From Escherichia phage Eps7, in the sequence record NC_010583.1: a stretch of DNA of 64,000 nucleotides, one strand, 5' to 3'. Under the pieces are notes generated by a model. It was not told the DNA's origin, ran no database searches, and worked only from the letters and a program-made list of their open reading frames with translations. The position numbers and the translations under genes are program-made. This document shows, piece after piece, positions 6,430-45,169 of this stretch (position 1 is its first letter; every line of letters begins with the position of its first letter).

Positions 6430-8822
6430 TTATAATTGACAACCACCAGATGCGCATCCAGCAGCAGCTTCCTCTCCTGCACCTCCACCATTTTCAGTGT
6501 TGAAGTTTGCATAATAAAAGGTTTTCCAACCGTACTTAACAGCAGTCATAAAGTCACGAACTACTACTGGGCCGGGAATGATTTCATTCTCGAACTTGGT
6601 GTAGTCATAGTACATATTCGTACTGATAGACTGGCTGAAGAATTTCTGCATGGTTGCTACCCATTTGATCCACTCGATACGATCTACATCATAAGCCAGT
6701 TTATAGCTCATTAATGTATCCCAATCAGTTGCACCTGGAGCAATTGCAATTACTTTATTAACTGCACTACCCTTGATAGATACGATCTTACGGGGCGGTT
6801 CGATAGAGTTAGTAACACCTAGCAGTACAGAGGAACTTTCACCTGGCATCTGAGCAGTCAGAACAGAGTTGCGCATACCATATTTCAGAATATCTGCACG
6901 CAGAGATTCCCAATCCATTTCTAGACCTACAGTTACCAGTTCATCAACAGTTTTCTTGTACGTGTCGATTACCAGAGTTCCTTGCGAAGGCTTAGTACGA
7001 TTAAACCAGTCACATGCACCTTGTTCTTTAGCCAGACGTACAGAGGCTTTATGTAGGAAGTAGGACAGCTTTTCAGCTTCACGGTGAATCCAGTTACGTG
7101 CTTCAACACCTTCGTAAGCCAAACCTTCTGCTGCCATTGCACCTGCTGCGTTCATCAGACCAATACCAACGTTACGACGTTTCTTAGCCGTGTACTTCCA
7201 TAGTTGGGAATGGGTAATCCTGAATCTCGATGATTGTATCAACGAATTTCAGAAGGATGTAGCAAGTTTTCTCCCATTCAGCCAGAGATTCCATGCGGCC
7301 TAGTACAACACCACCTAAGTTACACAGAGATACTTCACCAATATCTTCTGGACGCATATCGTCTAACTGATCTTGGGTTTTATACAGTTCCGTAACGTGA
7401 TGGAATGGACGGGTGGCTGAGTAATTCAACACAAAAGGGTTGGTCATACGAATCGGGTCAAGGAAGTTACCATGACGGTTAGATTCACCAATGTGATGAG
7501 CATACATACGCCCTGTTTCCATACGGATACGTAACCAAGTATCTAGGATTTCTTTTGCAGAGATTCTAGGAGCTGCTGGAATTGTTTTTCCTTCGTGGTC
7601 GATCTTTGTAAGAGAAGCCACACGTTTCTCCGCTGCCACGTAGATTTCTTCAAACTTAGCCTCATCTTCACCATAAAACGCTTCATGAACTTCTGGTGCG
7701 TAGAAGTAGGACATTAGCGTAATATCTTCGTTTTTCAGGTAACGTTTTAACAGAAGGTTGTTAAAGCTCAGAGAATAATCCATCTTATCGATTTTATTCT
7801 CGTCTGTAGCACGTTGCTGCTTAACCTGCATCAACTGAATGATTTCAGGATCGAAGTATGGATAAGACACAGTAGCAGAACCGCCACGGGTTTGCTGAGT
7901 GTTAGCTTTTACTGATCGGTCAATGTGTCGATAATATGGCAGTTTTCCGGAATGCGGGAATGCCCCATTTCGCACCGGATCAGCAATTGATCGGCTTTCA
8001 AGATGATACCCGATTCCCGCTCTGGCTGCGACCATTTTGAAGACGATGTGCTCGGCTGTGTCGATTGAATCCAGCGTGTCAGTGGAATCCACGAGACAGC
8101 AACTAGCAAATCCACGGTCACTAGAGCGCAGGCCAACCAGTGGCGGCGTAGGAACGTTGATTTTGTGGAGCGACATTGCATTGTAGAGGTCGATTGCATC
8201 TAGGATTGTCCAGTTAGGTTGAGATAACATCGCCATTGCCATACCCATGTAGGCAAACTGCGGGGTTTCATAAATTTCACCAGTTGCAATATTACGACGA
8301 GAATACTTGTCGAAGAACTGTTTCAGTCCACCACTGGTGAATAAACGATCGCGATCATGATCAATAACTTGGTTCAGAGCGTCAAACTGATCATCGCTAA
8401 TCCATGCACTCATGTCTTCCCAGCGCCAACACGAACCATATGATCGTGGAAGAAACGCAGAGAAGGGGTTCAAAGGAATCATATAGGCGTTTACGCATCT
8501 GCGCAAGACGTAATTCCTTTGCTACAGTATCATATGCTGGGTTGTCTTTGATAAGACCTTCAGCGGCTTTAATTAACACATCTTGGAGGGTATCGGAATC
8601 TACAACACCTTTTGGTAGATTTTTCTGGGCAGACATAACGACGGCAGACCAACTTACGTCAGTTGCTTTACATGCCCATGCAGCCCAATCATTGAGTTTT
8701 TCAGGAGCAAAGTCCTGAACAGTACCGTCACGTTTAATTACTTTTTCAATACTATGGCTCATTGGGGTTTCCTTTTTGTAGTTATCAGGATTTAGGAAAT
8801 ATTCTACTTTGTTTTGGGTCAT
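6430..8822 (-). CDS. nrdA: ribonucleotide reductase class Ia alpha subunit, split over three frames by single-base indels
   Basis: ATP-cone N-terminus (8397..8822), catalytic core (7184..8506) and C-terminus GIGLMN..CASGGCQL (6430..7242) are collinear with E. coli NrdA; frame breaks at G4 (8465-8468), CCC (8419-8421) and about 7181-7190. Confidence 0.9.
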
Positions 8823-9129: not shown

Positions 9130-9429
9130 TTACACCTTCCCCATATCCTTAAAGATATCGTAGAATGCTTTAGACTCCGGTGAGCGAACGTTGTCGATCA
9201 GTTCGATCATAGAGAAAGGAGAGTTTTCGTACTTCTCATAGACTTCCATAAGAAGTGCTAGACCTGAATCACCCTTGATGTCTTTCTGAGCTATATCCCC
9301 ACAGATAATTAAACGACAATCTTGTCCTACACGAGTCAGGAGACAGATCATTGCTTCAACGGAGATATTCTGAGCTTCATCGACAATTACATAGGAGTTG
9401 TTGAATGTTGCCACGCTTTCTTGAACCAT
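9130..9429 (-). CDS. PhoH-like ATPase, C-terminal half only (Walker B onward)
   Basis: VIVDEAQN, LTRVG, GDIAQKD, SGL and VRS motifs; no Walker A upstream; an out-of-frame ATG with AGGAG RBS lies at about 9463. Confidence 0.65.
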   Translation of the reverse strand: MVQESVATFNNSYVIVDEAQNISVEAMICLLTRVGQDCRLIICGDIAQKDIKGDSGLALLMEVYEKYENSPFSMIELIDNVRSPESKAFYDIFKDMGKV

Positions 9430-9536
9430 TGCGGTTCTCTCTTTTTTGACGTGCTTTTCCCATAAATAACACTCCTATAGTGTACTTCGCTAACAGAGGA
9501 TCAACAAAAAGATCTTGTTTATCAACTTACAAATAT

Positions 9537-9756: not shown

Positions 9757-9786
9757 GTTGACATCCGCCTTCGAATGAGTTATAAT
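9757..9786 (+). promoter_or_regulatory. sigma70 promoter TTGACA-18-TATAAT for nrdD
   Basis: TTGACATCCGCCTTCGAATGAGTTATAAT, then GAGAAGGAGGG RBS. Confidence 0.6.
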
Positions 9787-9815
9787 AGTAGTCTTAGTTA
9801 GAGAAGGAGGGTATA

Positions 9816-11690
9816 ATGAATCGCAATGAAGAACTAAAATATAAAGGAATGCAGTCCTTAATTCGAAACTGCAAAGAAATTATCGAAGGTTCAGCAGATG
9901 AAGAGCTGCTGTTTAATAATGCCAATAAACCCTCAGAACGTTTCCCTACACAAAGGGATATGCTTGCAGGGGAATTGAGTAAATATCTGATTCTGGAAGA
10001 AATGCCAATACAGATTCGAAATGCTCACATGATTGGTGATATTCACTTCCATGATGCTGATTACGCTGCGTTAGGTATGACTAACTGTTGCCTGGTTGCT
10101 TTGGAAGATATGTTGAAGAATGGTATGAAGGTTGGTAATGCTGAAATCAGTACACCAAACTCTATTACTACTGCGGCTGCTATTACAGCTCAGATTATCA
10201 CTCAAGTTAGCTCCCATCAGTATGGTGGTACTTCTGTAGACCGATTAGATGAAGTATTGGCTCCTTATGTTCGTAAGTCTTACGATAAGAATCATGCGTT
10301 TGCAAAGCGTTGGACTAAGGATGAAGCCAAAGCATCTGTAATGGCTACGGAAATGACTGAGAAAGAAGTGTACGATGCCTGTCAAGGTCTAGAATATGAA
10401 ATCAATACGATGTTCAACTCTAATGGTCAGAGTCCATTTATTACCTTTGGGTTTGGTCTAGGAACTTCTTGGGAAGCACGTCTTGTACAGAAAGCAATCC
10501 TAGAAGTGCGTATGGATGGTTTGGGTATCAATAAACGTACTGCTATCTTCCCTAAACTGGTATTTGTTCTGCGAGATGGCGTAAACATGAAGCCTGGAGA
10601 TGTCAACTACGATATCAAGAAGTTGGCTATGAAGTGTACTGCCGAACGTATGTATCCTGACTATATCAGCTATGATAAGGTTGTAGAAGTTACGGGAGAC
10701 TACAAAGTCTCTATGGGCTGTCGTTCATTCCTGGCTGCTGCGGAAGATGGTGAAACTTCTGGTCGTAACAACTTAGGCGTTGTTTCCGTAAACCTTCCTC
10801 GAATCGCTATCGAAGCGGAAGGAAATATTGATCTATTCTTCGATCTGCTTGAGCTGCGTGTGGATACCGCGTTAAAAGCATTGGAGTGGAGAGTTGATCG
10901 CTTAAAATACATTCAAGCTAACGCTGCGCCCATCCTCTATATGTCAGGAGCCTTTGGATTACGTCTGGGGCCAGATGAATATGTATTTGATCATTTCTAC
11001 AAGCGTGCTTCTGTATCCCTAGGATATATTGGCTGCCACGAAATGTTGCAGCTCATGTTTGGTAAAGATGTTGATACAATGTCTGAGTCTTGTATCAAGT
11101 TCGTTCAACGTGTGTTACAATACATGCGTGATCGTGCTGATCAGAAGAAGGAAGAGACTCAATTAGGGTATAGTCTGTATGCTACACCATCTGAATCTCT
11201 ATGTGATCGCTTCTGTCGTCTAGATCGTGAGTATTTCCCAGAGCATGAAGATATTCTGGCTAAAGGATATTACACTAACTCTCATCACCTTGATGTGGAG
11301 CGTAAGGTTGCTCCAAATGTGAAGTTTGATTATGAGTCTAACTTTACTCCTATTGCTTCTGGTGGGTGCATTTCCTATGTGGAATTACCCGATATGAAAC
11401 GATTCCCAGATGCGCTGGAATGGGTTATTAACTATGCTGCAAGTAAGGTTCATTACTTCGGTATTAATACTCCAGTAGACTCCTGTGGGGAATGTGGGTT
11501 CTTGGGTGAGACTATAGCTTCTGAGGATGGTTTCAAATGCCCTATTTGTGGCAACCATGACCCTGAGACTCTTGAGGTAACTCGTCGAGTTTGTGGATAT
11601 CTTGGAAATCCAGGTGCTCGTCCGTTTAACCCAGGCAAACAGCATGAGGTAATGGGTCGAGTGAAACATCAGGACATTCGCGCTAAATAA
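9816..11690 (+). CDS. nrdD: anaerobic ribonucleoside-triphosphate reductase (class III, glycyl-radical enzyme)
   Basis: C-terminal Zn ribbon CGECGF..CPICG and glycyl-radical motif RVCGYLGNP; 624 aa. Confidence 0.95.
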   Translation: MNRNEELKYKGMQSLIRNCKEIIEGSADEELLFNNANKPSERFPTQRDMLAGELSKYLILEEMPIQIRNAHMIGDIHFHDADYAALGMTNCCLVALEDMLKNGMKVGNAEISTPNSITTAAAITAQIITQVSSHQYGGTSVDRLDEVLAPYVRKSYDKNHAFAKRWTKDEAKASVMATEMTEKEVYDACQGLEYEINTMFNSNGQSPFITFGFGLGTSWEARLVQKAILEVRMDGLGINKRTAIFPKLVFVLRDGVNMKPGDVNYDIKKLAMKCTAERMYPDYISYDKVVEVTGDYKVSMGCRSFLAAAEDGETSGRNNLGVVSVNLPRIAIEAEGNIDLFFDLLELRVDTALKALEWRVDRLKYIQANAAPILYMSGAFGLRLGPDEYVFDHFYKRASVSLGYIGCHEMLQLMFGKDVDTMSESCIKFVQRVLQYMRDRADQKKEETQLGYSLYATPSESLCDRFCRLDREYFPEHEDILAKGYYTNSHHLDVERKVAPNVKFDYESNFTPIASGGCISYVELPDMKRFPDALEWVINYAASKVHYFGINTPVDSCGECGFLGETIASEDGFKCPICGNHDPETLEVTRRVCGYLGNPGARPFNPGKQHEVMGRVKHQDIRAK

Positions 11691-11695
11691 TGAAT

Positions 11696-11729
11696 CAGCC
11701 AGATCGCTAGTCGATCTGGCTTTTATTTT
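11696..11729 (+). terminator. rho-independent terminator
   Basis: GCCAGATCG-CTAG-TCGATCTGGC followed by TTTTATTTT. Confidence 0.7.
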
Positions 11730-11731
11730 AT

Positions 11732-11760
11732 TTGCTTTCGAGCTAAAACTTATGTATAAT
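11732..11760 (+). promoter_or_regulatory. T5-type promoter TTGCTT-17-TATAAT with downstream TGATTTATAAATTTGAGAGGAG box
   Basis: sequence match to the promoter family recurring on this strand. Confidence 0.65.
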
Positions 11761-11789
11761 TGATTTATAAATTTGAGAGGAGAAAGACT

Positions 11790-12071
11790 ATGAGCAAATT
11801 GCTTCCGAAAGTAGATGTTTCCCATCTTGGAGAGCCTAGTGAAGAACGTAAGGCTCTTGATTGGCTAGGTGGATTTGATTATCGTCGTGTTGTTGCAACA
11901 TGGAATACTGGTAAGGTTAAAAAATTTCGTGTGCATTATGTTGGCAAAGATAAGTGGCTCTGGATCGATTATGAAGAATCGAAGGGATCTACTAAGGCTG
12001 TAAAAGTCTATCGTATGAATGGGTATTATTATGCTCATTGTGATAAGAATGAATTTACAGTACAGAACTAA
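11790..12071 (+). CDS. hypothetical protein (93 aa from ATG 11790)
   Basis: GAGAGGAGAAAGACT-ATG RBS; the track ORF extends to 11760. Confidence 0.5.
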   Translation: MSKLLPKVDVSHLGEPSEERKALDWLGGFDYRRVVATWNTGKVKKFRVHYVGKDKWLWIDYEESKGSTKAVKVYRMNGYYYAHCDKNEFTVQN

Positions 12072-12080
12072 GGAACAAGA

Positions 12081-12284
12081 ATGAAGAACGTAAGACATCT
12101 TAAATATCGCTTAATTTACAACGGACGTATGGAAACAGAAGATCTAGCTCAGCTAGCGATCAATTCAGATGAAGTTACGGTTCGTGCTTTATCTATTGAG
12201 AAGCTGCGTGCTTCTTACGAAAATCGTATTATGGAACTGGAGGAGAAACTGTATGGACTTCTTGAATCAGAATCTAAAAAATAA
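12081..12284 (+). CDS. hypothetical protein (67 aa)
   Basis: AAGGAACAAGA-ATG RBS. Confidence 0.45.
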   Translation: MKNVRHLKYRLIYNGRMETEDLAQLAINSDEVTVRALSIEKLRASYENRIMELEEKLYGLLESESKK

Positions 12285-12447
12285 TCTAGAAAACATGCTT
12301 ATGGAGCAGTGGAACTCTGGGTATAATGCTGGGGTGGCTACTTGTATTGCGGGGTTGGATATGCTTATTAAGCAAGAAAAGGTACGTCCAGAAGAAGCAA
12401 TTCTACTCCAAAATATCATCGAAGGATTCAAGCAAGGAATCGTATAA
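12253..12447 (+). CDS. hypothetical protein (64 aa)
   Basis: GGAGGAG RBS 7 nt upstream of ATG 12253; overlaps previous ORF. Confidence 0.4.
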   Translation: MDFLNQNLKNNLENMLMEQWNSGYNAGVATCIAGLDMLIKQEKVRPEEAILLQNIIEGFKQGIV

Positions 12448-13261
12448 TGCGTAGACTAATCGTTGTTAGTGGTGCAGGTTTGAGTGTAGATAGTGGTGTT
12501 CGTGCTTTCCGTACTGATACTGCTAGTGGTAAAGCGTTGTGGGATGATTATGACCTAGAAGAGGTATGTAATATTCATGCCTTTCGTGGTAATTTTACCA
12601 TAAAACTCATATGTTTTACAACAAACGTCGTGAAGAGTTACAAACTGTTGAACCTAACCTAGCTCATTTGCGTATTGGTGAATGGTATAAACGGTATCCA
12701 AATCAAGTGGTAAACCTTACTACCAATGTTGATGATCTAATCGAACGTGCTGGAGTGCCGAGAGAAGATATACTCCATATTCATGGATATCTGAAAGAAA
12801 TTATTGTAGAGCATGCGTTCGACCAGACACGTGATGTTATTGATATTGGGTATAGTTCTATTGATCCAGATGACTTTGATTGGGTTAAACCTAACGTTAT
12901 CTTCTTTGGTGAGGTTGCTCCTGCCTATAAAACAATGTATGAGGTTTTTGATGGTATCACCAGTCATGATATGATCATCATTGTTGGGTGCTCTAACCAA
13001 GTAATTAACTTCTACTGGGAGCTATTTCCTGTTCTGAATCTTACTGCTGCAAAACTTATGGTAGTTAACTATTACGATAGTGCAGTAGCTATGGAACCAG
13101 GCTATCAGGGCATGACTCGTAGTGAAATGTATCAGTTAGAAGAACGTGGTATTCCTTACTGGAGTAAAGGTGCTGTGGATGCCTTTAGTGATCCCGATTT
13201 TATTGCTCGTGTGGAAGCTCATCTAGAAGGTAAACCCTATGTTCAACAAAAGCATGTGTGA
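12447..13261 (+). CDS. Sir2-family NAD-dependent deacetylase / ADP-ribosyltransferase-like protein, frameshifted
   Basis: VVSGAGLSVDSGVRAFR (GAGxS..SG..FR), TTNVDDLIERAG, HG, KPNVIFFGE, IIVGCS motifs; frame break at T4 (12594-12597). Confidence 0.8.
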
Positions 13262-13401: not shown

Positions 13402-13587
13402 ATGGTGAAGAAGATTTTTAAGGGTATCTGGAAAGGTCTAGTATGGTTTGTCAACCTAATCGGTATGATTACCATTTATTCTCTGTTCCTATCTGTTATG
13501 TGGGGTAAAGGTGAATTGAAGGTTCCAGTTCCTTTTACTGATGAAGTTAAAGTCTGGACGTGGGATGCTACTGGTGGAAATAAGTAA
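13402..13587 (+). CDS. small membrane protein (61 aa)
   Basis: AAGGAGGGAGAAT-ATG RBS; hydrophobic segment GLVWFVNLIGMITIYSLFLSVMW. Confidence 0.4.
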   Translation: MVKKIFKGIWKGLVWFVNLIGMITIYSLFLSVMWGKGELKVPVPFTDEVKVWTWDATGGNK

Positions 13588-14080
13588 TACTCCTATAATT
13601 TTCCTGGATATTGATGGGGTGCTCAATTCGAGCATCTCTCACCATCATGCTCCAGATAGTGAAAAGCTATTCTTTGGTAGTGATTGGGTTTATAAGCCAT
13701 TACTCCAGGCTTTTCAGAACTTCCTTAAACCTTCTCCAATAATGATTGTTGGGGTATCTTCATGGTTTTCTGTACGAAACGAGATGGAGAACGTCCAGAG
13801 TATGACCGGGCTCGGTTTGATCGATCGTTTTCTTGGTACAACAGATTTTACTGGTGGCGGTTTATCTCGTGGTAATTCTGTCTTACGTTTCGTAGAAAAA
13901 CATAAGCTCAAGCATTGGTGCGTCCTAGATGATGCTGGTGCTATGATGTATCAATTTCCTACTGTTATTGTAAATGGCAGGACTGGAATAAACCTTCAAG
14001 ATTTAAATGCTATCAGCTATATGCTGGAGTTTAGTCCAGATCTTGAAATGTGTAAGGCTCTTCAGAAACTCAAGGTGTAA
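13541..14080 (+). CDS. HAD-superfamily phosphatase-like protein
   Basis: IIFLDIDGVLN (DxDG[V/T] motif I); true start may be ATG 13565. Confidence 0.6.
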   Translation: MKLKSGRGMLLVEISNTPIIFLDIDGVLNSSISHHHAPDSEKLFFGSDWVYKPLLQAFQNFLKPSPIMIVGVSSWFSVRNEMENVQSMTGLGLIDRFLGTTDFTGGGLSRGNSVLRFVEKHKLKHWCVLDDAGAMMYQFPTVIVNGRTGINLQDLNAISYMLEFSPDLEMCKALQKLKV

Positions 14081-14082
14081 AT

Positions 14083-14511
14083 ATGTTCGATAATCTTTTC
14101 ATGAAAGAGGTAAACCCTATGCTCCTCAACTTCTGGCGATCTCTCCCTGATGGTATGTATAATGAAACCATCAATCTGCTCAAGATTTGGTGTGAGAATA
14201 ACGATATCTTCTTATCCTTTAAAGGCCCACTAGAGGAAGCTCCGTGTATTGGAGTTAGCGTGGATTTAGGGGAGGGAGTAGAAGAGATTGTAGACTGGAA
14301 AGAACTAGATGAAATGGGTCTGGTTTTTGCCTTGAACCATAAGCTGTTTATGCCTGCAAATCACCGTCTTATTGTAAACTATCGCACTGGTGAAGCTCCT
14401 GCTTTCCAGGTAAATGAACGGGAGGGCTGGTCATATTCGCCCGAAGAAGTAAATGAGGGGATTCAGAAACTTCGTCGTTTCGGGTATATGATCCCAGGTT
14501 TAACTGCTTAA
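14083..14511 (+). CDS. hypothetical protein, tandem paralogue A
   Basis: shares W-EL-EMGL-ALN ... TGE-P ... R-GY-PGL pattern with the next ORF. Confidence 0.55.
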   Translation: MFDNLFMKEVNPMLLNFWRSLPDGMYNETINLLKIWCENNDIFLSFKGPLEEAPCIGVSVDLGEGVEEIVDWKELDEMGLVFALNHKLFMPANHRLIVNYRTGEAPAFQVNEREGWSYSPEEVNEGIQKLRRFGYMIPGLTA

Positions 14512-14520
14512 GGAGGCAGA

Positions 14521-14916
14521 ATGGAACAAGTATTTTGGCGTCAGATAGATCCTAGTTTGGTAGAGCGTGCTGAGGGGCTCCTTGCACGTTGGTTGGGGGT
14601 TGACAAGGTTAGTGTAACATTTCCGTTTACTTCTGTAACAGACCCTAGTGTAGGTGTCTTTGTGGACGAAGATGAAGATGATGGTTGGGAAGCTGACTGG
14701 AATGAATTGTCCAGTATGGGCTTGATTGTTGCCCTCAACTTCTCTATATTCCACCCACGTGGTTTAGCTATTACACGTGATCCCGAAACCGGTGAATCCC
14801 CTTATCTTTTGCAAGTAGAAGATGATATTTGGGAGTACACCGAAGATATTCTCGAAGAAGCTAAAGGTCAATTAAATCGCATTGGGATCTATGTTCCAGG
14901 CCTAAATGATGATTGA
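14521..14916 (+). CDS. hypothetical protein, tandem paralogue B
   Basis: paralogue of 14083..14511; AAGGAGG RBS. Confidence 0.55.
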   Translation: MEQVFWRQIDPSLVERAEGLLARWLGVDKVSVTFPFTSVTDPSVGVFVDEDEDDGWEADWNELSSMGLIVALNFSIFHPRGLAITRDPETGESPYLLQVEDDIWEYTEDILEEAKGQLNRIGIYVPGLNDD

Positions 14917-22790: not shown

Positions 22791-23550
22791 ACTGAACTGG
22801 AACGTAGAAGGTGTAACCGAGTCTCTGAAAGCAAAAGCCACTGCTCTGGGTGTTGCTGTAATCTCTCAAGAACAAGTAGCTGCTATCGCTGCTGAACTGG
22901 CTACCGAGACTGGTAAAGACGTTACCGCTCGCTCTGTTGGCTCTAAGCTGCGTAAAGAAGGTTTCGAAGTACAGAAAGCTAACGAAGTACAGAAATCCCC
23001 GTGGACTCCTGAGCAGGAAGCTGAACTGGTTGATTTCCTGAACGCTCATGCGGGTCAGTATACTTACGCTGAAATCGCTGCTGCTGTAGCTGGTGGTCAG
23101 TTCGGTGCTAAGCAGGTTCAGGGTAAGATCCTGAGTCTGGAAATGACTGCTTCTGTTAAGCCAACCGAAAAAGCTGCTGCTGTTCGTTCCTTCACTCCTG
23201 ACGAAGAAACTGATTTCGTTAATCAGGTTGTTGCTGGTGCTACTATTGAAGCTATCGCTGCTCACTTCGGTCGCAATATTAAGCAGATCCGTGGTAAAGC
23301 TCTGAGTCTGCTTCGTGAAGGTCGTATCGCTGCTATGCCGGTACAGGAAACTTCAAGTGCTAAAACTCGTGAAGATCTGTTAGAAGGTCTGGATCTGGCT
23401 AACATGACTGTTGCTGAGATCGCTGAGAAAACTGGTAAGTCTGAGCGCGGTGTTAAATCTATGCTGTCTCGTCGTGGTCTGGTTGCTAAGGACTATGATG
23501 GTGCCGCTAAGCGTGCTAAACTGGATGCAAAAGCTGCGGCTGCTGAATAA
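22783..23550 (+). CDS. Ala-rich protein with four internal HTH-like repeats, putative DNA-binding protein
   Basis: repeated ..EIAA..G...V.(S/G)K..SL.. modules; optimal codon usage; 255 aa. Confidence 0.55.
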   Translation: MSKLNWNVEGVTESLKAKATALGVAVISQEQVAAIAAELATETGKDVTARSVGSKLRKEGFEVQKANEVQKSPWTPEQEAELVDFLNAHAGQYTYAEIAAAVAGGQFGAKQVQGKILSLEMTASVKPTEKAAAVRSFTPDEETDFVNQVVAGATIEAIAAHFGRNIKQIRGKALSLLREGRIAAMPVQETSSAKTREDLLEGLDLANMTVAEIAEKTGKSERGVKSMLSRRGLVAKDYDGAAKRAKLDAKAAAAE

Positions 23551-36640: not shown

Positions 36641-36718
36641 TTTAGTAAGGAGTTGTTTTACTAATTCCTTTATTTTATTAATCTTTTTTTTTTTGAAAGG
36701 GTGCAAAACGAACCTCTT

Positions 36719-36748
36719 GCATTTTGCATTTTGCATTTTGCGTTTTCA
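36719..36748. repeat. tandem heptamer (GCATTTT) x4 next to a T11 tract at the convergent early/late junction
   Basis: TTGCATTTTGCATTTTGCATTTTGCGTTTTC; T11 run at about 36684-36694. Confidence 0.6.
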
Positions 36749-36882
36749 TATTGTACATAAGAACAGCCTAAGAATCAGCGAACTGTTAACATAGCAGAAC
36801 ACGCGTTGCGTTGCTAGGATAATCAATGTTCAGGCTTGTTTCGCAGCAATATTTTTCAGTGACAGATTGCACTCCACTTATA

Positions 36883-39833
36883 TTATGGTAGTTCTGTAAT
36901 TGTTGGAGCATTTCCGTTAAGCATTGATTTTACAAGGTTTTTCAGTTCATATAACTCATTGCGTAATACGTTAATTTCCTCCTGTTGATTATCAATCTTT
37001 GCTTTTTGCTCTTTGAATGCGTTAACAAGAAGTGCGACAACACCATTATAGTTAATGCCTTTGATTGCCTCGCCTTTTGGGTCTAGCTGACCATCGTTAT
37101 TCAAAGAATGAACCGCTTCCGGCAAAACCCTTTCAACATCTTGTGCGATCAATCCAGCCTCAATACTATAAACGCTGTTTTCATCTTCAATTAGATTGTT
37201 GCGCTTGTAGTAAGTATAACCAGTTAGATAATCAATTTTGTCGGATGCCGTTTCGATCTCTTTTAGATGTGCTTTTAATCTAATGTCAGACCTGCTAACC
37301 CAATTTGATGCGCTACCATTTCCAGCACTATCAAAAATAAAGTCAGCGCCCTTAACATAAAGATGTGTTTCAGCGCCGCCAGAAGTCCACGGAACAACAT
37401 CCATGCCAGCTATCCAATCTTTCCCCAATAAACAGATTTAAATATGGCAACCGCAGAATCAAATCCAATGTGCTCAACAAGCAATCCAGACGCACGACTA
37501 CGCCAGTCGGCAAATGAACCACCCTCAACTTGACCAGCAATAAGAGCGTTTGGATCACCGCGCCTAACTCCATTTACATACATACCCCTTGCGTTATCAT
37601 CAACATAAGATGATATGACCCTGTAAGTGTTTATTCCTGATGGAGTCCATGCAAATATTCTCGCTGAATCAGCAAACGCGCTTATGTGACCATCACGATC
37701 CCATTTAAGACCTGAATCATGATCCCCAATTGCTATAGAGTAATCACCAAGAGCCGATTGAGCATCCGGACTTAATAACATCAATTGCCTATCAGATCTT
37801 GCTATCCTGTACCATCCACCCCAAGAGCCAGCACTGCAAATGATACCCCATTTATTACCGTTCATTGCGGTTGCAACAATATTTCCATACTCAACATGAC
37901 CGTTTGCATTTTTACCGTGAACATGCAATTCATACATCCACCAACCAGAGGCTTCAGGTGGTTGATATGTAACAAGTTCTCCGCTTGAGTAATAACCGCT
38001 TTCTGCGTATGTTGACATAAACCCAAGAATGTTTGAATTATTAGGAATAATAATTGCTTGACCACCAACAGGAGTATTTAAGTTCTTTCTTGCTCCAACT
38101 TCAGTATTAGATCCAGTGCCGCCAGCATCAATTGAAAGAGGAATCCATCTTCCAGTTTCATCAGTCCAAACACCCCACGCCGCATCAGGTCTAATTGTGA
38201 TTCGATAAGGTGAGTTACTCCCTGGTGCATACATCATAGTTTCTGTTTCTGTTTGCTTTAAACGATCAATGCCAAAGTTTATTTTTGCGCCCTCAACGTT
38301 TTCAGCACCAGTACCGCCAGCACCAATAGAAAGCGCAGATGTGCTGTTATTGTCATTACGCGCAACGCGCCATTCCCCATTGTTAGCGATCCGTAATTCA
38401 TAAGTCCATGCAGGATTACGAAAAGAATTATAAGCGCCAGCATATTGATCTTTTACAGAATTAACAGCCTCAACTTTTAGCGCCTCCCTTGCAAGGTCTT
38501 TGTTTGCAAGATCATTAAGGTTCTGATCCTTCTTTAACGACGCTTGCATAACCTGTTCTGCTGATGCAGCCGCTGTCTCCGCTCTATCTGCTGCACTGGT
38601 GGCATTAGTAGCTTTCTCTCCTGCTATTGTAGCGCTACCAGCGGCCTCCAGGGCCTTGTCTGTTGCTGTCGTTGCAGCAGTAGTGGCGGTATTTTTAAAT
38701 ACCTCTGCTTCGTCTCTGTAGCCTTTGGTTGTGGTCATCGCTTGCGTAGCTGTATTCGCACTACCTGATGCACTTTGCTGAGCTAGCTTAGCAGCGTCTT
38801 CACTAGCTTTTGAGTTAATTTCACTAGTCTTTGTATTAGTTTCTGAGTTTTTTGCTGCTAATGCTGATGTGGAGGCTTGTGCAGCGAATGCTTCTGCTTC
38901 ATCCCTGAATCCTTTGGAGTCAGAAGCAGAGGCAGCGGAATCAGCAGCATTAGTCTCACTAGTTTTTGCTGCTGCTGCATATGCTGCTGCATTAGTCTCA
39001 CTAGTTTTTGCATTAGTCTCACTAGTTTTTGCATTAATCTCACTAGTTTTTGCTGCAGCTGATGATTCTATAGCAGTAGTTTCACTAATTTTTGCTGCAG
39101 CTGATGATTCTGCAGCTTTAGTAGCGGATGCAGCAGATTGAGAAGCAGAAATAGCAGACTGAGAAGCAGAAGCTTCAGAAGCTTCAGCAGAAATAGCAGA
39201 TTCATTCTCAGAATTCTTAGCATTAAGTTCTGAAGTCTTAGCAGCTATCTCGGAGTCTTTTGCAGTAGTAGCGTATTCTCCCGCCTCTGTAGCAGAACCA
39301 GCAGCAGCAATAGCCTGATTGGTAGACTCAGTAGCAGATGTAGCAGCATTTTGCTCAGAAGTAGCAGCAGCAGTCTTAGCAGCCTCAGCGTCCTTCTTAG
39401 CTTGTTCAGCTAATAGACGACTCTGTTCAGCATTTTGTGCAGCAAGTTCAGCAGAATCACGGAATCCTTTGGATTCCTCAGCTGACGTAGCAGAGGCATC
39501 AGCACTATCTTTAGATAAACCAGCTTGTCTCTCCGCTTCAGTAGCAGAAGCAGCAGATTGAGTTGCAGAAGTTTCTGAAGAGTTAGCGTAAATTGCAGCT
39601 AGGTTCTCCGAGTCCTTAGCATTTGTTTCAGATTCTTTTGCTGCAATTTCAGAATCTTTTGCTGCCGCAGCAGAAGCAGCAGAGGCCTCAACAGCCCCTG
39701 TTAGTTCACTAGCAGTAATAGAACTAATAGAAGTACCTAAAACTACCGTATACTTAGGATATTTACTAGCAGTAGTTGTAGTGTCATCTATGTTCAGAAT
39801 CTGCTGTACAATAATTTTAGTTTTAAGTGCCAT
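36883..39833 (-). CDS. ltf: L-shaped tail fibre (pb1-like) with C-terminal intramolecular chaperone domain, frameshifted
   Basis: Ala/Ser/Thr-rich fibrous repeats, then a Gly-rich globular domain, then chaperone motif IEAGLIAQDVERVLPEAV; frame break at C4/G4 (37423-37426). Confidence 0.8.
38947..39115. repeat. 21-bp tandem repeats inside the tail fibre gene (encoding KTSETNA heptads)
   Basis: ATTAGTCTCACTAGTTTTTGC x3 in tandem at 38990-39052 plus further partial copies. Confidence 0.7.
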
Positions 39834-40260: not shown

Positions 40261-42319
40261 TTACCTTATATGGATATACCCACTATTTAGGTCTATCTTC
40301 ATCTTGTAGTATGCTTCAGGGTTTCCTGATAACGCAGCATTTCTATCGTAGATTATATTAACACCTATTTGTGATAAGAAGGCATTTCCTGCCACAATCT
40401 TATCAGCAGTTACAGTTCCATTAACAATCATGTTGCCATGAAGAACCATTGCAGGGTTAATCCATCCAGCCCCGTTCCATTGACGGGTAAATGCTGTTTG
40501 TGGAGCATTACTGTTAAATTGTGTTAGAACATCGTATTTAACCGGAGGTTTTCCAAAGTTATTTTGAAAGAATGCGTTAGCTTGTCCATCATCCCAACCG
40601 CCTAATCCAGGAATACCCATGGAGTACATCCCAGGACCACGCTGTCCATCATGTCCTATAGTACCTTCAGTACCACTCCATTGAACTACATCAGACCAGC
40701 TAGTACCTTCAAGAAGTTTGTTAGTAACTGGATCAAGTGTACCTGTAGTCGCATAGATATTTTGTGTCATATCTGTACGATTAGGTGGAGTTTTTGACCA
40801 ACCAGGAGGTGGATAATCTTGTTCTAACGGTTTGGCCGGTAAAGATGTTGCTAACTTATAAACAAATACTGTTTGCTTACCTTGTAAACCAGTTCCAATA
40901 TCTACGTCACCATTTGGTGTTCCAATTACTACACCACTAGAAATACGCAGAGTAGTACCATCATAACGTATCCATTGTGTAGCATTACCAATGTCTAACT
41001 TAGCTTTGGCAGAGGTATTATCCATACCCATCCAAATACCAGAGTTATTATCTCCCCAAGATTTACCTTGAGTATAAATTGCTGGATTATCTTTACCAGA
41101 TAAGTTAGTCATGATAAAGTTCGCAGCATTAATATCTCTAGTAATTACTTTACCATCGACGTTAACAACACGATTTATAGGGTCGAAAGAAATAGGTGCT
41201 TTTCCTTCTTCATCTAGCAGACCAATGTTAATAGCACCAGTAGCTGCATCAATTAAGAATGTCTGTCTCCAGATTTCTCCATCTTTCATACTACCCTTAA
41301 TAAAGGCATAGTTAACATCAATACCAGTCTCATTGACAAAACTATTATCTAGAGGAGTATCTTCATTCAATATAAATGTTACAGGAGCTGATTCTGTTAT
41401 ATCTTGCTTATTTGGTCCCCAGGCAATTGATGAAACCTTAAAGGTATGTTCAACTTTCCATGGGAATGATATAATCGTTGCAGCTCTAGCAGCACCCACG
41501 TTTATCTTTTGAGCTTTAGCCCATCCGGTTTTAGCGTATTCCTCGGAGTTTATATAAGTAACCAAGAACTCACGAACGTTAGCACCAGCACCACGTTCCC
41601 ATTCCCACTCAATTCTAACATCATATCGTTCTTTACCATCAGCAATTCGTGCAGCTTTAAAAACAATATCGATAGGTGCAGTAGGTGGAACAAAGTTATA
41701 AGCTACAGTTAGAATATTAGGAAACTCGTAGTATCCTGAAGAATCAACTGTAACACCATCAGGCATAGTTACTTGACCAGATATTCTGATCTTATAGTCT
41801 CCGATAGGAACTCCACCAAATTTAATAGTAGAACCTAAAGCCCCAATATAATATTTAGTCCAAGGACTGTCTTCAGTGGCTGTACTTTTTAACTCAATAG
41901 TACAGTAACTTGCTTCACCAGTTGTTTCCACAACAACTATCGGTGCGCCCACCCCAACATCCACAGGTTCTGACTCAGATCTTGCTGCGACAATTATTGG
42001 CTTCTCTTTTGTTTTAAAGTTAGTTTCATTAGAGAGGTTAATACCAATTTTTGCATTTAAAAGTTCTGAGTCAATAATCGAGTCATAAAAAAGCTCCCTG
42101 AACCTGATAGGTAGTTGAGGGAGTTAAATTATTGATCATAACAAAGAAAGTGTCGATTCCAGTGAAATCTCTTCTATCCACTTCTTCGCCAAGTTTAAGC
42201 CAGAATGATCTACCGATAACATCGTAGTCGGTATAGATAGAATGCTGGATATACGCCATCGTATACCCAGTCATAATACTATTTAAGACCATCTTGGCTG
42301 GTGCATTATTCGAAATCAT
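40261..42319 (-). CDS. baseplate/tail-tip protein pb4-like, frameshifted
   Basis: 78-aa and 567-aa ORFs join into ~686 aa if the A6 run (42087-42092) is read as A5. Confidence 0.7.
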
Positions 42320-45169
42320 TTAAATAGATGCCCAATCCACAGATTGCTCGCCATTATCACCTTCTGCTCTTATACGGAAGCGTAACTTCCTATTAATACC
42401 CAGAGCATCCTCATTATGAAGAGCATAGTCTGCCTTATTGTATATCAGTAGATAATCGTAGACATACTGATCTTCAATTCGTACACTTCTTAATAAACGA
42501 TCTAGGTTATCGTAGATTTCGAGAGTGTAGAAGATTCCATCAATGATATCTTCTTCTGGAATTCTATCCCAGGCCAATTTAACGTCTGGTCCTACAAACT
42601 CCGAAGCATCTCCTGAAGCTGTATTAGTAACCCTGAAGTTACTAACGACGCTTAAGTTTTTAGCAGAGTTAAGTTCTACTGATAATGTTACAGGAGAACT
42701 TCGTCTACCATTAATATCTACAGCTCTAATCTCAAAGACTGCTAAACCAGCAGGTTCTCCAATAATTTCTTGGATCATTCGTAGATTTGGATTAGTTTCT
42801 AGTTGCTGTACGATATAAGGATCAGCATGTCCAGAATGAACGATGGAGTAATAAACAACGTTATTAGTTAAGCTAGGAAGCCAAGATAGCTCACCATTCT
42901 TACCAATAGACCCTACTTGTCCACCTGGTGTTGGTGTATACATAAAGTCTCTAGGAGGCAGTACGTTATTACTAACATCAGGGATATCGTTACCACTATT
43001 ATCAACCTGCTCGGAGTTAATGAATACATCCTCACCATACTCTTGCAGTGTAATATTAATCTTACCTTCTCTAGAGTTTTCAACTTCATCAACTAGGAAG
43101 TATTTCTTATCCCAACCATAACGACCATATGTAAAAGCAACCGGATCGTTAGGCTCAATACCTATGAAATGATATGGTAATGAGAATGTGAGAGTTCGTG
43201 AGTAACGAGATTTTTTCAGTTCTCTATCTGCAAAGCTACGTGCAGTATAATAGTTAGTGATGTTTGCAAAAGAAAGCTGAAGTTTTTTATCTAATCCTTT
43301 ATCTTGTTCTTTAAATATAGAGTTAAAGAATGTAATGGAGTTAGTTTTCCAGCTTAATGCGGGATCTAGTATAGAGGCCTGTACTGAGTTGAATTTATTT
43401 CTGCCAGTAGTATCTGACAATTCCAGATCACCATAGGTATCTAAGAAGTCAATCTCCAGTGGAGTATTCGAGAACTTCTCAACAGTTATTCTATACTGAC
43501 CAGATAAGTTGTTGATAGCACCCCCATAAGACTCTATTAATCCCTGCACGTTTTTAAATACTGACTCAGAGGTATCGAGAATAGTGTTCATTTGAACTAT
43601 TTGTCTATTCTCTCCTACAGCATCAGTCCATCCAACGTATCTCCAGTAGGGTTGCCAAGAAACCTGATAGGATTCATCAATTATATCCAGAATAGCTGCT
43701 TCTTGAATAAGTTGCTGGAGAGGGAACTGATCAATAGTGATATTAGCACCATAGCGATCAGAGGTTAGGTAGTCCAGAGTTTGCCAGATACCATTTAAGC
43801 TAGTCTTATCAGCAGTTACTCTACCATCTGAATGATAGATCTTAATCTTCTTACCTTGAACTTCAGCGCTAACTTCTGGAATTTCTGTTCTGTTTTCATT
43901 AATAGTAAAGCGAACAATAGCGTAAGCAGTATCTAACAGTTTATAACGAGAGTCCCAGTATTCTGGTCCATTCTCATTCATGTTCTGTAGGTAGAAACCT
44001 TTCTCTTTTGCAATGTTAACTAGAACATCCGCAGCAGATTGGTCTGCTTTACCATGATAAGTCCAGATACGTATATCGCCATTACCATCGTTATACCTAT
44101 ATTCCTGTCCATGAACAGAGGGTTCAGAGCTTGATTGACCAGAAGCAATACGTTGCATGGTATCTCCAGCTACTTTCTTAGTACCAAAGCAAGTACGAGA
44201 CTTACTATCGTTAGGATCAATACAGATCATTGGTACATCACCAAAGTAGAAATCTAGAAATCCATCAATCTCACCCTCACAGAAGGCATATACTATATAT
44301 ACGATATTAGGGTTATGCAGCTCAGTATCCGCAAATACGGGGATTCCAGGGATTTTCTGAGTTCCATACACTACTGGAAGGAACTTAGCCGCTAAGTTAA
44401 AATCGATGTCAACTTCCTTAGTCACAGTCTCATAGTATTTCTTTAGGCTATAGCTTCTAGAAAGACCAAATAACTTTTTCTTAGACTGTAACTTGTAACG
44501 TTCTTCCTGAACCTGATACTTAGCGAGAATAGAAATACTTTTATTAGCATGGAAGAATCCGTAGTCCTCTTGATACTCAGGTCGCTTAGCACCATTAGAT
44601 GGAACTAATTGGCCAGCAACAATCTCAAGTCCCCTATGGTCAGCATCGTCTGTGAAACGTCCGTTTACTCTATCAAAGTCGTAAAACTGGTTCGAACAGT
44701 TCCATGTGATAGTGGATGTGCTAATTCCAGAAGTACCAATGTTATCCTTAATACCACCACCAGTGATTTTACCACGGAAGTAAAGTAAAGGACCATTAGT
44801 GTCTGGATCCACAGGAAGAATGTTACCTTCTTCATCAATAACCGCTTGATGGATTGAGATGGATCTATCTAGGAATGATACACCATTTTGGACTAGTTTT
44901 AATACTTCATCCTCAGCAGTACCTGTGATAGTAAAAGAAAGACTACCAATGGAAAGATCTCTATTTTGTTTATGTGTTGTTATAGACTTAACCTTACCGG
45001 ATGTATAAAGAATCCCATTATATCTTACATCTCTAAAATAATCTGTAAGATATATGTAGGCAGAACTTGATCCAGTAGAGCTTGGCAATTCAAGAGTAAT
45101 AAGGCATGCAGTTTTTATTTTATTATTAGTTCTTAAATACTCTCTTGCACTGTCAAGAATTTTCTTCAT
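42320..45169 (-). CDS. baseplate hub protein (pb3-like)
   Basis: 949 aa, immediately downstream of the distal tail protein. Confidence 0.75.
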   Translation of the reverse strand: MKKILDSAREYLRTNNKIKTACLITLELPSSTGSSSAYIYLTDYFRDVRYNGILYTSGKVKSITTHKQNRDLSIGSLSFTITGTAEDEVLKLVQNGVSFLDRSISIHQAVIDEEGNILPVDPDTNGPLLYFRGKITGGGIKDNIGTSGISTSTITWNCSNQFYDFDRVNGRFTDDADHRGLEIVAGQLVPSNGAKRPEYQEDYGFFHANKSISILAKYQVQEERYKLQSKKKLFGLSRSYSLKKYYETVTKEVDIDFNLAAKFLPVVYGTQKIPGIPVFADTELHNPNIVYIVYAFCEGEIDGFLDFYFGDVPMICIDPNDSKSRTCFGTKKVAGDTMQRIASGQSSSEPSVHGQEYRYNDGNGDIRIWTYHGKADQSAADVLVNIAKEKGFYLQNMNENGPEYWDSRYKLLDTAYAIVRFTINENRTEIPEVSAEVQGKKIKIYHSDGRVTADKTSLNGIWQTLDYLTSDRYGANITIDQFPLQQLIQEAAILDIIDESYQVSWQPYWRYVGWTDAVGENRQIVQMNTILDTSESVFKNVQGLIESYGGAINNLSGQYRITVEKFSNTPLEIDFLDTYGDLELSDTTGRNKFNSVQASILDPALSWKTNSITFFNSIFKEQDKGLDKKLQLSFANITNYYTARSFADRELKKSRYSRTLTFSLPYHFIGIEPNDPVAFTYGRYGWDKKYFLVDEVENSREGKINITLQEYGEDVFINSEQVDNSGNDIPDVSNNVLPPRDFMYTPTPGGQVGSIGKNGELSWLPSLTNNVVYYSIVHSGHADPYIVQQLETNPNLRMIQEIIGEPAGLAVFEIRAVDINGRRSSPVTLSVELNSAKNLSVVSNFRVTNTASGDASEFVGPDVKLAWDRIPEEDIIDGIFYTLEIYDNLDRLLRSVRIEDQYVYDYLLIYNKADYALHNEDALGINRKLRFRIRAEGDNGEQSVDWASI

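What the first reader, a model, noticed from the sequence alone, without database searches (positions are those of the whole stretch)
9816..12447. nrdD present without an adjacent NrdG activase
The class III reductase has an intact glycyl-radical motif, but none of the downstream small ORFs contains a CxxxCxxC radical-SAM motif. The activase may be encoded elsewhere or supplied by the host.
Basis: seen in the sequence. Interest (0 to 1): 0.35.

Follow-up and report, generated by a model that had tools for sequence, protein, structure and literature searches.

The report
T5-like phage nrdD lacking its activase
This T5-like Salmonella phage carries an intact, strongly conserved anaerobic ribonucleotide reductase gene but no gene for the enzyme that switches it on, a gene pattern already described for T5-type phages and most simply explained by use of the host's own activating enzyme.

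Summary
Window 9816-11690 (+) encodes an intact 624-aa class III ribonucleotide reductase, NrdD, with every catalytic residue conserved. It has its own consensus promoter and its own terminator. No CxxxCxxC radical-SAM motif and no NrdG-like sequence occurs in the three small downstream ORFs or anywhere else in the six-frame translation of the 64-kb window. The complete genomes of the closest relative (Salmonella phage PMBT27, about 97% identical) and of phage T5 also lack one. The same searches readily found NrdG in Vibrio-infecting members of the same phage family, which serves as a positive control.

The window is an Epseptimavirus-like member of Demerecviridae. The nrdD-only pattern holds across the Enterobacterales-infecting genera and was published for T5, EPS7 and SPC35 (Dwivedi et al. 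2013).

nrdD is under strong purifying selection (dN/dS 0.006-0.016), so it is in use. The best explanation is activation by host NrdG already present in the cell. This is inferred, not shown.

Two leads to a hidden activase were tested and rejected.

Verdict: a real feature, already known, of low interest. The untested point is whether these phages depend on host nrdG under anaerobic conditions.

The parts
9758..9786 (+). Sigma-70-type promoter of nrdD (TTGACA, 17-nt spacer, TATAAT; 12 of 12 matches)
   Evidence: T5 has an annotated promoter at the equivalent place upstream of its nrdD. A consensus match is not proof of function.
9804..9810 (+). Shine-Dalgarno sequence AAGGAGG, 5 nt upstream of the nrdD ATG
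   Evidence: Read directly from the sequence.
9816..11690 (+). nrdD: class III (anaerobic) ribonucleoside-triphosphate reductase catalytic subunit, 624 aa, without an ATP-cone
   Evidence: Pfam NRDD E 4e-172 and Gly_radical E 9e-23, with no ATP-cone hit. PHROG 487 E 6e-286. PDB sequence hits: 9d3x 1.6e-188, T4 NrdD 1h78 9e-176. 54% identical to E. coli NrdD residues 113-705. The N-terminal ~90 residues of E. coli NrdD are absent. dN/dS is 0.006 against PMBT27 and 0.016 against T5.
11484..11549 (+). Zinc-ribbon cysteines Cys557, Cys560, Cys575 and Cys578 of NrdD
   Evidence: They align with T4 C543/546/561/564 and E. coli C644/647/662/665. This domain is conjectured to contact NrdG (PMC4493059).
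11595..11597 (+). Codon of Gly594, the predicted glycyl-radical site in the motif RVCGY
   Evidence: Aligns with T4 G580 and E. coli G681.
11697..11731 (+). Intrinsic terminator directly after the nrdD stop codon (10-bp stem with 6 GC pairs, then TTTTATTTTAT); also scored on the minus strand
   Evidence: sequence. T5 has an annotated terminator at the same place. nrdD is therefore a single-gene transcription unit and not a truncated nrdDG operon.
11790..12071 (+). Small ORF 1 (93 aa, PHROG 7953, function unknown); not NrdG
   Evidence: One cysteine and no Pfam match. PHROG 7953 E 4e-63. A weak NrdG-like hit (E 0.14-0.3) was rejected by three tests. The matching motif is not conserved in the family. 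The hhalign probability is 0.18%. The AF2 model is one helix plus a 4-strand antiparallel sheet with cystatin/NTF2-like top hits.
12081..12284 (+). Small ORF 2 (67 aa, PHROG 5236, function unknown); no cysteine
12253..12447 (+). Small ORF 3 (64 aa, PHROG 5827, function unknown); one cysteine
   Evidence: The start codon is taken from the PMBT27 annotation.

Best explanation
The phage encodes only the catalytic subunit of the anaerobic ribonucleotide reductase. It depends on the host's NrdG activase, a radical-SAM [4Fe-4S] enzyme, to install the glycyl radical on Gly594.

Proposed sequence of events in an anaerobically growing Salmonella or E. coli cell:
1. The host nrdDG operon has already been expressed, so NrdG, its flavodoxin reducing system, SAM and formate are present at the time of infection.
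2. nrdD is transcribed as a single-gene unit from its own strong promoter.
3. The new NrdD dimer is activated by pre-existing host NrdG, which is no longer needed once the radical is in place.
4. The phage enzyme has no ATP-cone. It reduces NTPs to dNTPs for phage DNA synthesis after the host chromosome, and with it the host nrdD gene, has been destroyed.

Shown here: nrdD is intact and constrained, it forms a single-gene unit, and no phage activase exists. Inferred: host NrdG is the activator, and pre-existing amounts of it are enough.
For: - NrdD is intact and all catalytic residues are conserved.
- Purifying selection is strong. There are 44 synonymous against 1 non-synonymous differences from PMBT27, and 156 against 13 from T5, giving dN/dS of 0.006 and 0.016. 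The gene is therefore used, even though this lineage has no activase gene.
- No NrdG or CxxxCxxC candidate occurs in the window, in PMBT27 or in T5, and the positive control was found.
- nrdD without nrdG at the same locus is conserved across Epseptimavirus, Tequintavirus, Novosibvirus (Proteus) and Sugarlandvirus (Klebsiella).
- Record counts fit a family-wide absence. Phage records with NrdD minus those with NrdG give Salmonella 397-126=271, Escherichia 1053-931=122 and Shigella 111-107=4. The T5-like nrdD records number 266, 119 and 4.
- E. coli carries nrdDG.
- After NrdD is activated, NrdG is no longer required (PMC4009431).
- There is a precedent for a phage glycyl-radical protein that uses a host activase: T4 Y06I is activated by host PFL-AE (PMC8683613). 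T5-like genomes also encode a GrcA/Y06I-like protein with no activase.
- The C-terminal zinc-ribbon and glycine-loop domain, the conjectured activase contact, is 65% identical to E. coli NrdD, against 53% for the core. T4 NrdD, which has its own NrdG, shows the reverse: 48% against 61%. The interaction test gives z=2.76, p=0.006.
Against: - There is no direct evidence of activation by host NrdG.
- Overall, the phage NrdD is only about 52% identical to E. coli NrdD, so compatibility is not guaranteed.
- From my memory of the T4 literature, which I did not check here, T4 NrdD needs its own NrdG. That would argue for some specificity between reductase and activase.
- The C-terminal conservation argument rests on 69 positions. 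Vibrio phage NrdDs that do have their own NrdG are even more E. coli-like there (77%), so the signal does not discriminate.
- T5 shuts off host gene expression and degrades host DNA (A1 annotation). Only pre-made NrdG would be available.
- The T5 reference NrdD has a 50-aa in-frame deletion. The gene can therefore be lost without harm under laboratory (aerobic) propagation.
Confidence: 0.75

Rival explanations
1. The activase is encoded in the part of this phage genome that lies outside the 64-kb window.
For: The window covers only about 57% of a ~112-kb genome. In Vibrio Demerecviridae, nrdG lies about 3 kb from nrdD and is not adjacent to it, so a distant position is possible in this family.
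Against: The complete genomes of PMBT27 (about 97% identical to the window) and T5 have no NrdG by motif scan, tblastn or HMM. Collection-wide counts indicate that essentially all T5-like records lack NrdG. The only ORF in these genomes with a C-x3-C-x2-C string is the T5.055 family. It is 91-104 aa long, its first Cys is not conserved, and it is found only in T5-like phages.
Confidence: 0.03
2. The phage NrdD is never activated as a reductase. It is either a decaying relic or has another, non-radical role, for example binding nucleotides or sequestering host NrdG.
For: Dwivedi et al. state that it is unknown whether RNRs in phages with incomplete gene suites are functional. The T5 reference strain carries a 50-aa in-frame deletion in NrdD that removes conserved barrel sequence.
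Against: dN/dS of 0.006-0.016 rules out a decaying relic. The radical glycine, both active-site cysteines, Asn319 and all four zinc ligands are conserved in five divergent genera with 60-98% identity, which is the pattern expected of an active reductase. The gene also has a consensus promoter and a strong ribosome-binding site.
Confidence: 0.07
3. Activation comes from something other than host NrdG. Candidates are another host glycyl-radical activase such as PflA, or an unrecognised phage factor that recruits or replaces the activase (one of the small ORFs downstream of nrdD, or the T5.055-like Cys-motif protein).
For: The three small ORFs downstream of nrdD are conserved with nrdD in Epseptimavirus and Tequintavirus. 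T5-like phages also carry a GrcA-like protein with the PFL-type motif RVSGYAV, which would be a PflA client. A conserved CxCxxC protein lies next to that gene.
Against: No phage ORF has a radical-SAM motif or fold. ORF 1 is a helix plus a 4-strand sheet with no significant structural match, and its hhalign probability against NrdG is 0.18%. The downstream ORFs differ in Klebsiella and Proteus relatives that keep nrdD, so they are not obligatory partners. From general knowledge, glycyl-radical activases are largely specific for their cognate enzymes.
Confidence: 0.07

Closest known systems
nrdD of phage T5, EPS7 and SPC35 ('Enterobacteria phage cluster 4' of Dwivedi et al. 2013, PMC3653736)
   Same: The same gene (98% aa identity to T5 NrdD over 574 aligned residues). 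The neighbourhood is also the same: nrdB, nrdA and phoH on one strand, then nrdD, small ORFs, Sir2 and the replication-origin-binding protein on the other. The genomes hold nrdD plus nrdAB and no nrdG, as stated in the paper.
   Different: The T5 reference NrdD lacks 50 residues (392-441 of this protein). This window has a ~407-bp deletion in phoH and many single-base indels.
Bacteriophage T4 NrdD/NrdG
   Same: A phage class III RNR without an ATP-cone. It is 50% identical, and the catalytic Cys/Asn/Gly residues and the zinc ribbon are the same.
   Different: T4 encodes its own NrdG, downstream of nrdD with only mobC between them. The T4 NrdD C-terminal domain is less like the host's than its core, which is the opposite of the T5-like protein. 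T4 nrdD carries a group I intron; this gene does not.
E. coli / Salmonella nrdDG operon
   Same: The same enzyme family (52-54% identity) and a nearly identical glycine loop: VTRRVCGYLG.P.ARPFN.GKQ.EV..RVKH.
   Different: The host NrdD has an N-terminal ATP-cone of about 90 residues, and nrdG lies immediately downstream of nrdD. The phage gene stands alone between its own promoter and terminator.
nrdD-grx-nrdB-nrdA-nrdG cluster of Vibrio-infecting Demerecviridae (Ermolyevavirinae: VPG01, Achelous)
   Same: The same phage family, with the RNR module next to the replication-origin-binding or primase-like gene.
   Different: These phages keep a genuine NrdG: CxxxCxxC present, 58-60% identical to E. 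coli NrdG. Their NrdD is 717-724 aa with an ATP-cone and only about 53% identical to this one, roughly as distant as E. coli NrdD. Whether the enterobacterial lineage lost nrdG or acquired nrdD alone cannot be decided.
T4 Y06I / E. coli YfiD (GrcA) activated by host PFL-AE
   Same: A phage-encoded glycyl-radical protein with no phage activase that is activated by a host radical-SAM enzyme (PMC8683613). T5-like phages carry a homologue (T5.056; PMBT27 107055-107423).
   Different: It belongs to a different glycyl-radical family, serves as a PFL spare part, and uses a different activase (PflA). That gene lies outside this window.

Membership tests
Class III ribonucleotide reductase catalytic subunit (NrdD) | Full-length NRDD catalytic domain | tested here: met
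   Pfam PF13597 at E 4e-172 covers profile positions 2-562 of 562. PDB sequence hits to NrdD structures at E 1.6e-188 and 9e-176.
Class III ribonucleotide reductase catalytic subunit (NrdD) | C-terminal glycyl-radical motif RVCGY with the radical glycine | tested here: met
   Gly594 in TRRVCGYLG aligns with T4 G580 and E. coli G681. Pfam Gly_radical E 9e-23.
Class III ribonucleotide reductase catalytic subunit (NrdD) | Active-site cysteines and asparagine (T4 C79, C290, N311) | tested here: met
   Cys91, Cys302 and Asn319 are aligned and conserved in all ten sequences compared.
Class III ribonucleotide reductase catalytic subunit (NrdD) | Four-cysteine zinc ribbon before the glycine loop | tested here: met
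   Cys557/560/575/578 align with T4 C543/546/561/564.
Class III ribonucleotide reductase catalytic subunit (NrdD) | Glycyl radical formation and NTP reduction | not testable with these tools
   Requires EPR and activity assays or anaerobic infection experiments. Only indirect support is available, from purifying selection.
NrdG / glycyl-radical activating enzyme (radical SAM), applied to any ORF of the window or of close relatives' genomes | CxxxCxxC [4Fe-4S]-binding motif in a protein of about 150 aa or more | tested here: not met
   Six-frame motif scans of the window, PMBT27 and T5 found the motif only in short or antisense frames and in the 103-aa T5.055 family, whose first Cys is not conserved. 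The positive control was detected.
NrdG / glycyl-radical activating enzyme (radical SAM), applied to any ORF of the window or of close relatives' genomes | Sequence homology to NrdG | tested here: not met
   tblastn with E. coli and T4 NrdG gave a best E of 0.1-2. An NrdG HMM with filters off gave a best E of 0.14-0.3, against 1e-89 for the control. hhalign of the best candidate family against NrdG gave a probability of 0.18%.
NrdG / glycyl-radical activating enzyme (radical SAM), applied to ORF 1 (11790-12071) | Alternating beta/alpha (partial TIM-barrel) radical-SAM fold | tested here: not met
   The AF2 model (pLDDT 80-89 over residues 20-80) has one helix and a 4-strand antiparallel meander. 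Foldseek against the PDB gave a best E of 0.065, with cystatin/NTF2-like and designed beta-sheet proteins as top hits.

The most novel reading that the evidence does not exclude
A phage-encoded factor without a radical-SAM motif may adapt a host activase (NrdG or PflA) to the phage's two orphan glycyl-radical proteins. Candidates are one of the conserved small ORFs just downstream of nrdD (PHROGs 7953, 5236, 5827) or the conserved HH...CxCxxC protein next to the GrcA-like gene. In that case activation would not be a simple host-NrdG/phage-NrdD reaction.
Probability: 0.05. Interest if true: 0.6.

Novelty: already known. Interest (0 to 1): 0.15.

Why it matters
If host NrdG is the activator, T5-like phages depend on one host gene for anaerobic dNTP supply. 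These include several hundred sequenced Salmonella, E. coli, Shigella, Klebsiella and Proteus phages, some of which have been studied for pathogen control (PMC3326045). That dependence would matter in the gut, where such phages meet their hosts without oxygen, and aerobic host-factor screens would not be expected to reveal it.

It also illustrates a general rule for phage metabolic genes. The phage keeps the catalytic subunit, which is needed in large amounts, and leaves the activating enzyme to the host.

As a sequence observation it adds little. The nrdD-only pattern in T5, EPS7 and SPC35 was reported in 2013. What remains open is whether the enzyme is functional and which protein activates it.

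Tried and rejected
1. ORF 1 downstream of nrdD as a degenerate nrdG remnant.
- It was the top, non-significant, hit of both tblastn and an NrdG HMM in three phages (E 0.11-0.34; NrdG positions 56-108; 'GKDKWLWIDY' against 'GKDIWVWTGY'). It also sits exactly where nrdG would be in an nrdDG operon.
- Rejected for three reasons. The matching residues are not conserved in divergent family members. The hhalign probability is 0.18%. The AF2 fold is a helix plus a 4-strand antiparallel sheet, not a beta/alpha fold.

2. The T5.055-family protein as a minimal activase.
- It is the only ORF in T5-like genomes with C-x3-C-x2-C ('CICSCWMC'), and it lies next to the GrcA-like gene.
- Rejected for four reasons. 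It is only 91-104 aa long. The first Cys is not conserved, and the invariant set is CxCxxC plus an N-terminal HH. It has no Pfam match. It is found only in T5-like phages.

3. Reading the broken nrdA (three ORFs) and Sir2 (two ORFs) as pseudogenes that would make NrdD the phage's only RNR.
- Rejected. The window also has single-base indels that split the tape measure, tail and receptor-binding genes, which are essential. Sequencing or assembly errors are the likelier cause.

4. Deciding between loss of nrdG and acquisition of nrdD alone.
- Not resolved. The enterobacterial Demerecviridae NrdDs are about equally distant (50-54%) from Vibrio-phage, E. coli and T4 NrdD.

5. Literature searches for T5 together with nrdG, for anaerobic T5 infection, and for cross-activation of T4 or E. 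coli NrdD by foreign NrdG found nothing usable in the held library.
Full report
**What the window is.** The region of the finding matches 429 phage records. The best matches are T5-like Salmonella phages at about 96-97% identity. One of these close matches, phage bombadil, is classified Demerecviridae; Markadamsvirinae; Epseptimavirus. The window aligns colinearly with positions 13497-78161 of Salmonella phage PMBT27, a 112,708-bp genome. It therefore covers the end of the early region, the replication genes and most structural genes, about 57% of the genome.

**The observation.** The ORF at 9816-11690 (+) encodes a 624-aa protein.
- It matches Pfam NRDD at E 4e-172 over the whole profile and Gly_radical at E 9e-23. 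There is no ATP-cone hit.
- It matches solved NrdD structures by sequence at E 1.6e-188 (9d3x) and 9e-176 (T4 NrdD, 1h78).
- In an alignment with T4, E. coli and seven phage NrdDs, every residue I checked is conserved: Cys91, Cys302, Asn319, the zinc ligands Cys557/560/575/578, and Gly594 in RVCGY.
- The three downstream ORFs (11790-12071, 12081-12284, 12253-12447) have 1, 0 and 1 cysteine and no Pfam match. They belong to PHROGs of unknown function.

**Is an activase anywhere?** I scanned all six frames of the window for C-x3-C-x2-C. The motif occurs only in frames of 64 codons or fewer.

I assembled the complete genomes of PMBT27 and T5 and ran three searches on them and on the window:
- the same motif scan;
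- tblastn with E. coli NrdG (taken from the K-12 nrdDG operon) and with T4 NrdG;
- an HMM built from five NrdG sequences, run with filters off against all stop-to-stop frames of 40 codons or more.

Nothing scored better than E about 0.1. A Vibrio Demerecviridae locus included as a control scored 1e-89 with the HMM and 1e-61 to 1e-65 with tblastn. The methods therefore detect NrdG when it is present.

Counts across the collection point the same way. NrdD is found by tblastn in 2907 phage records and NrdG in 2282. By organism name, the excess of NrdD over NrdG closely tracks the number of T5-like nrdD records:

| Organism name | NrdD records minus NrdG records | T5-like nrdD records |
|---|---|---|
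| Salmonella | 271 | 266 |
| Escherichia | 122 | 119 |
| Shigella | 4 | 4 |

This compares counts and is not a record-by-record intersection.

**Anatomy.**
- nrdD has a perfect sigma-70 consensus promoter (TTGACA, 17 nt, TATAAT, at 9758-9786) and an AAGGAGG ribosome-binding site.
- Six bases after the stop codon there is a 10-bp-stem terminator followed by a T-rich tract (11697-11731).
- T5 has an annotated promoter and terminator at the same places.
- nrdD is therefore a self-contained single-gene unit and not the front half of a truncated operon.
- The locus has nrdB, nrdA and phoH on the minus strand. On the plus strand, nrdD is followed by small ORFs, Sir2 and the replication-origin-binding protein.
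- The core of this locus (nrdB, nrdA, phoH, nrdD, the origin-binding gene) is conserved without nrdG in Epseptimavirus, Tequintavirus (T5, Shivani), Novosibvirus (Proteus) and Sugarlandvirus (Klebsiella). The genes between nrdD and the origin-binding gene vary.
- The Vibrio-infecting subfamily Ermolyevavirinae instead has nrdD, a glutaredoxin-like gene, nrdB, nrdA and a genuine nrdG.
- The enterobacterial-type NrdDs are 60-98% identical to each other. They are about equally distant (50-54%) from the Vibrio-phage, E. coli and T4 proteins. Loss of nrdG cannot be told apart from acquisition of nrdD alone.

**Is nrdD in use?** Yes, judging by selection. Against PMBT27 there are 44 synonymous and 1 non-synonymous differences (dN/dS 0.006). 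Against T5 there are 156 and 13 (dN/dS 0.016). Synonymous sites are saturated against more distant genera, yet all catalytic residues are retained.

**Most likely mechanism.** A class III reductase needs a glycyl radical, which is installed by a radical-SAM activase. Once the radical is formed, NrdG is no longer required (PMC4009431; PMC3267527). The phage has no such enzyme, while the host has nrdDG. The simplest model is activation of phage NrdD by host NrdG already present in anaerobically growing cells. Pre-existing NrdG is required because T5-type phages degrade host DNA and shut off host expression (A1 annotation).

Supporting points, none of them direct:
- A phage glycyl-radical protein that relies on a host activase has a precedent, T4 Y06I with PFL-AE (PMC8683613).
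- T5-like genomes carry a second orphan glycyl-radical protein, a GrcA/Y06I homologue ending in RVSGYAVRF.
- The C-terminal zinc-ribbon and glycine-loop domain is the conjectured NrdG docking surface (PMC4493059). It is 65% identical to E. coli NrdD, against 53% for the core.
- In T4 NrdD, which travels with its own NrdG, the figures are reversed, 48% against 61% (interaction z=2.76, p=0.006).
- This last signal is weak. It rests on 69 positions, and Vibrio-phage NrdDs that have their own NrdG are even more host-like there.

Like T4 NrdD, the phage protein lacks the ATP-cone. From general knowledge of ATP-cones, this would free it from dATP feedback inhibition. That would explain why a phage carries the catalytic subunit even though the host already has one.

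**Leads tested and rejected.**
1. ORF 1, directly after nrdD, was the top but non-significant NrdG hit in three phages. The matching residues are not conserved in its own family. hhalign gives a probability of 0.18%. Its AF2 model is a helix plus a 4-strand antiparallel sheet with cystatin/NTF2-like top hits. It is not an nrdG remnant.
2. The only ORF in T5-like genomes with C-x3-C-x2-C is T5.055, next to the GrcA-like gene. It is about 100 aa long and its first Cys is not conserved, with CxCxxC plus HH as the invariant set. It is restricted to T5-like phages. It is not a radical-SAM enzyme.

**Comparison with what is known.** Dwivedi et al. 2013 (PMC3653736) state that many phages contain only nrdD along with nrdAB. 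[quoted passage not shown] They also note that it is unknown whether such incomplete suites are functional. A T5-like genome paper lists nrdD among the nucleotide-metabolism genes and no nrdG (PMC3326045). The pattern is therefore already known.

This analysis adds:
- whole-genome negative searches backed by a positive control;
- the selection estimate;
- the single-gene transcription unit;
- the contrast with the Vibrio subfamily;
- the second orphan glycyl-radical gene.

**Data quality.** Relative to PMBT27, the window has many single-base indels, several of them in homopolymer runs. These split nrdA into three ORFs and Sir2 into two. They also split the tape measure, a tail protein and the receptor-binding protein. 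A phage with those essential genes broken would not be viable. The indels are therefore most likely sequencing or assembly errors, and the nrdA and Sir2 breaks should not be read as pseudogenes. nrdD itself is free of such errors.

**Verdict.** The feature is real and correctly described, already known for this phage group, and of low interest (0.15). The host-activase explanation is probable (0.75) but untested.

Noticed in passing
window 6430-8822 (-), 12447-13261 (+), 40261-42320 (-), 45888-49599 (-), 60861-62548 (-): Single-base indels relative to PMBT27 split nrdA into three ORFs and Sir2 into two. They also split the tape measure, a tail protein and the receptor-binding protein. Because essential genes are broken too, these look like sequencing or assembly errors and not pseudogenes.
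   Followed up: partly
window about 9406-9430 (PMBT27 22917-23323 missing): About 407 bp of phoH is absent relative to PMBT27. Only the C-terminal 99 codons remain (9130-9429, minus strand). This could be a real deletion or an assembly artefact.
   Followed up: partly
L013 3961-5685 (T5 nrdD, T5.099): The T5 reference NrdD is 574 aa. It has an in-frame 50-aa deletion, residues 392-441 of the window protein, which removes the conserved 'SLGYIGCHE' segment. The enzyme may be inactive in the laboratory strain.
   Followed up: partly
L003 7055-7423 (PMBT27 107055-107423) and L010 27656-28024 (T5.056); outside the window: T5-like phages encode a 122-aa GrcA/YfiD/Y06I-like autonomous glycyl-radical protein (Pfam Gly_radical E 5e-18; C-terminus TIRVSGYAVRFNALT). 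It is a second glycyl-radical protein with no phage activase.
   Followed up: partly
L010 27263-27574 (T5.055) and PMBT27 106677-106982; outside the window: A conserved protein of about 100 aa lies directly downstream of the GrcA-like gene. It has a basic N-terminus (RRHHRQR), an invariant CxCxxC-(G/S)-P-(R/H)-K motif and an acidic tail. It has no Pfam match, belongs to PHROG 4499, and is found only in T5-like phages. Its function is unknown.
   Followed up: partly
L007 4482-10082 and L008 4524-10089 (Vibrio phages Achelous and VPG01): Vibrio-infecting Demerecviridae carry nrdD (with an ATP-cone), a glutaredoxin-like gene, nrdB, nrdA and nrdG as one cluster. In Achelous all five are annotated only as hypothetical proteins, and the VPG01 nrdG start codon appears to be annotated too far downstream.
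   Followed up: partly
L009 4764-6590 (Shivani) compared with window 9816-11690 and L013 (T5): There are two NrdD lineages within Markadamsvirinae. T5 NrdD is 98% identical to this Epseptimavirus-like protein. NrdD of Shivani, which is in the same genus as T5, is only 60% identical and is closer to the Klebsiella Sugarlandvirus protein (71%). This suggests gene replacement by recombination.
   Followed up: no
window 13541-14080, 14083-14511, 14521-14916 (+): A HAD_SAK_2 domain protein (E 3e-19) is followed by two adjacent paralogous DUF7415 proteins (E 7e-37 and 3e-28) between Sir2 and the origin-binding gene.
   Followed up: no
window 36692-36745: An intergenic TTTTGCA-type short repeat tract, and the T-run just before it, are longer here than in PMBT27. 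They lie just before a ~1.9-kb stretch (36861-38729) that does not align with PMBT27 at all.
   Followed up: no
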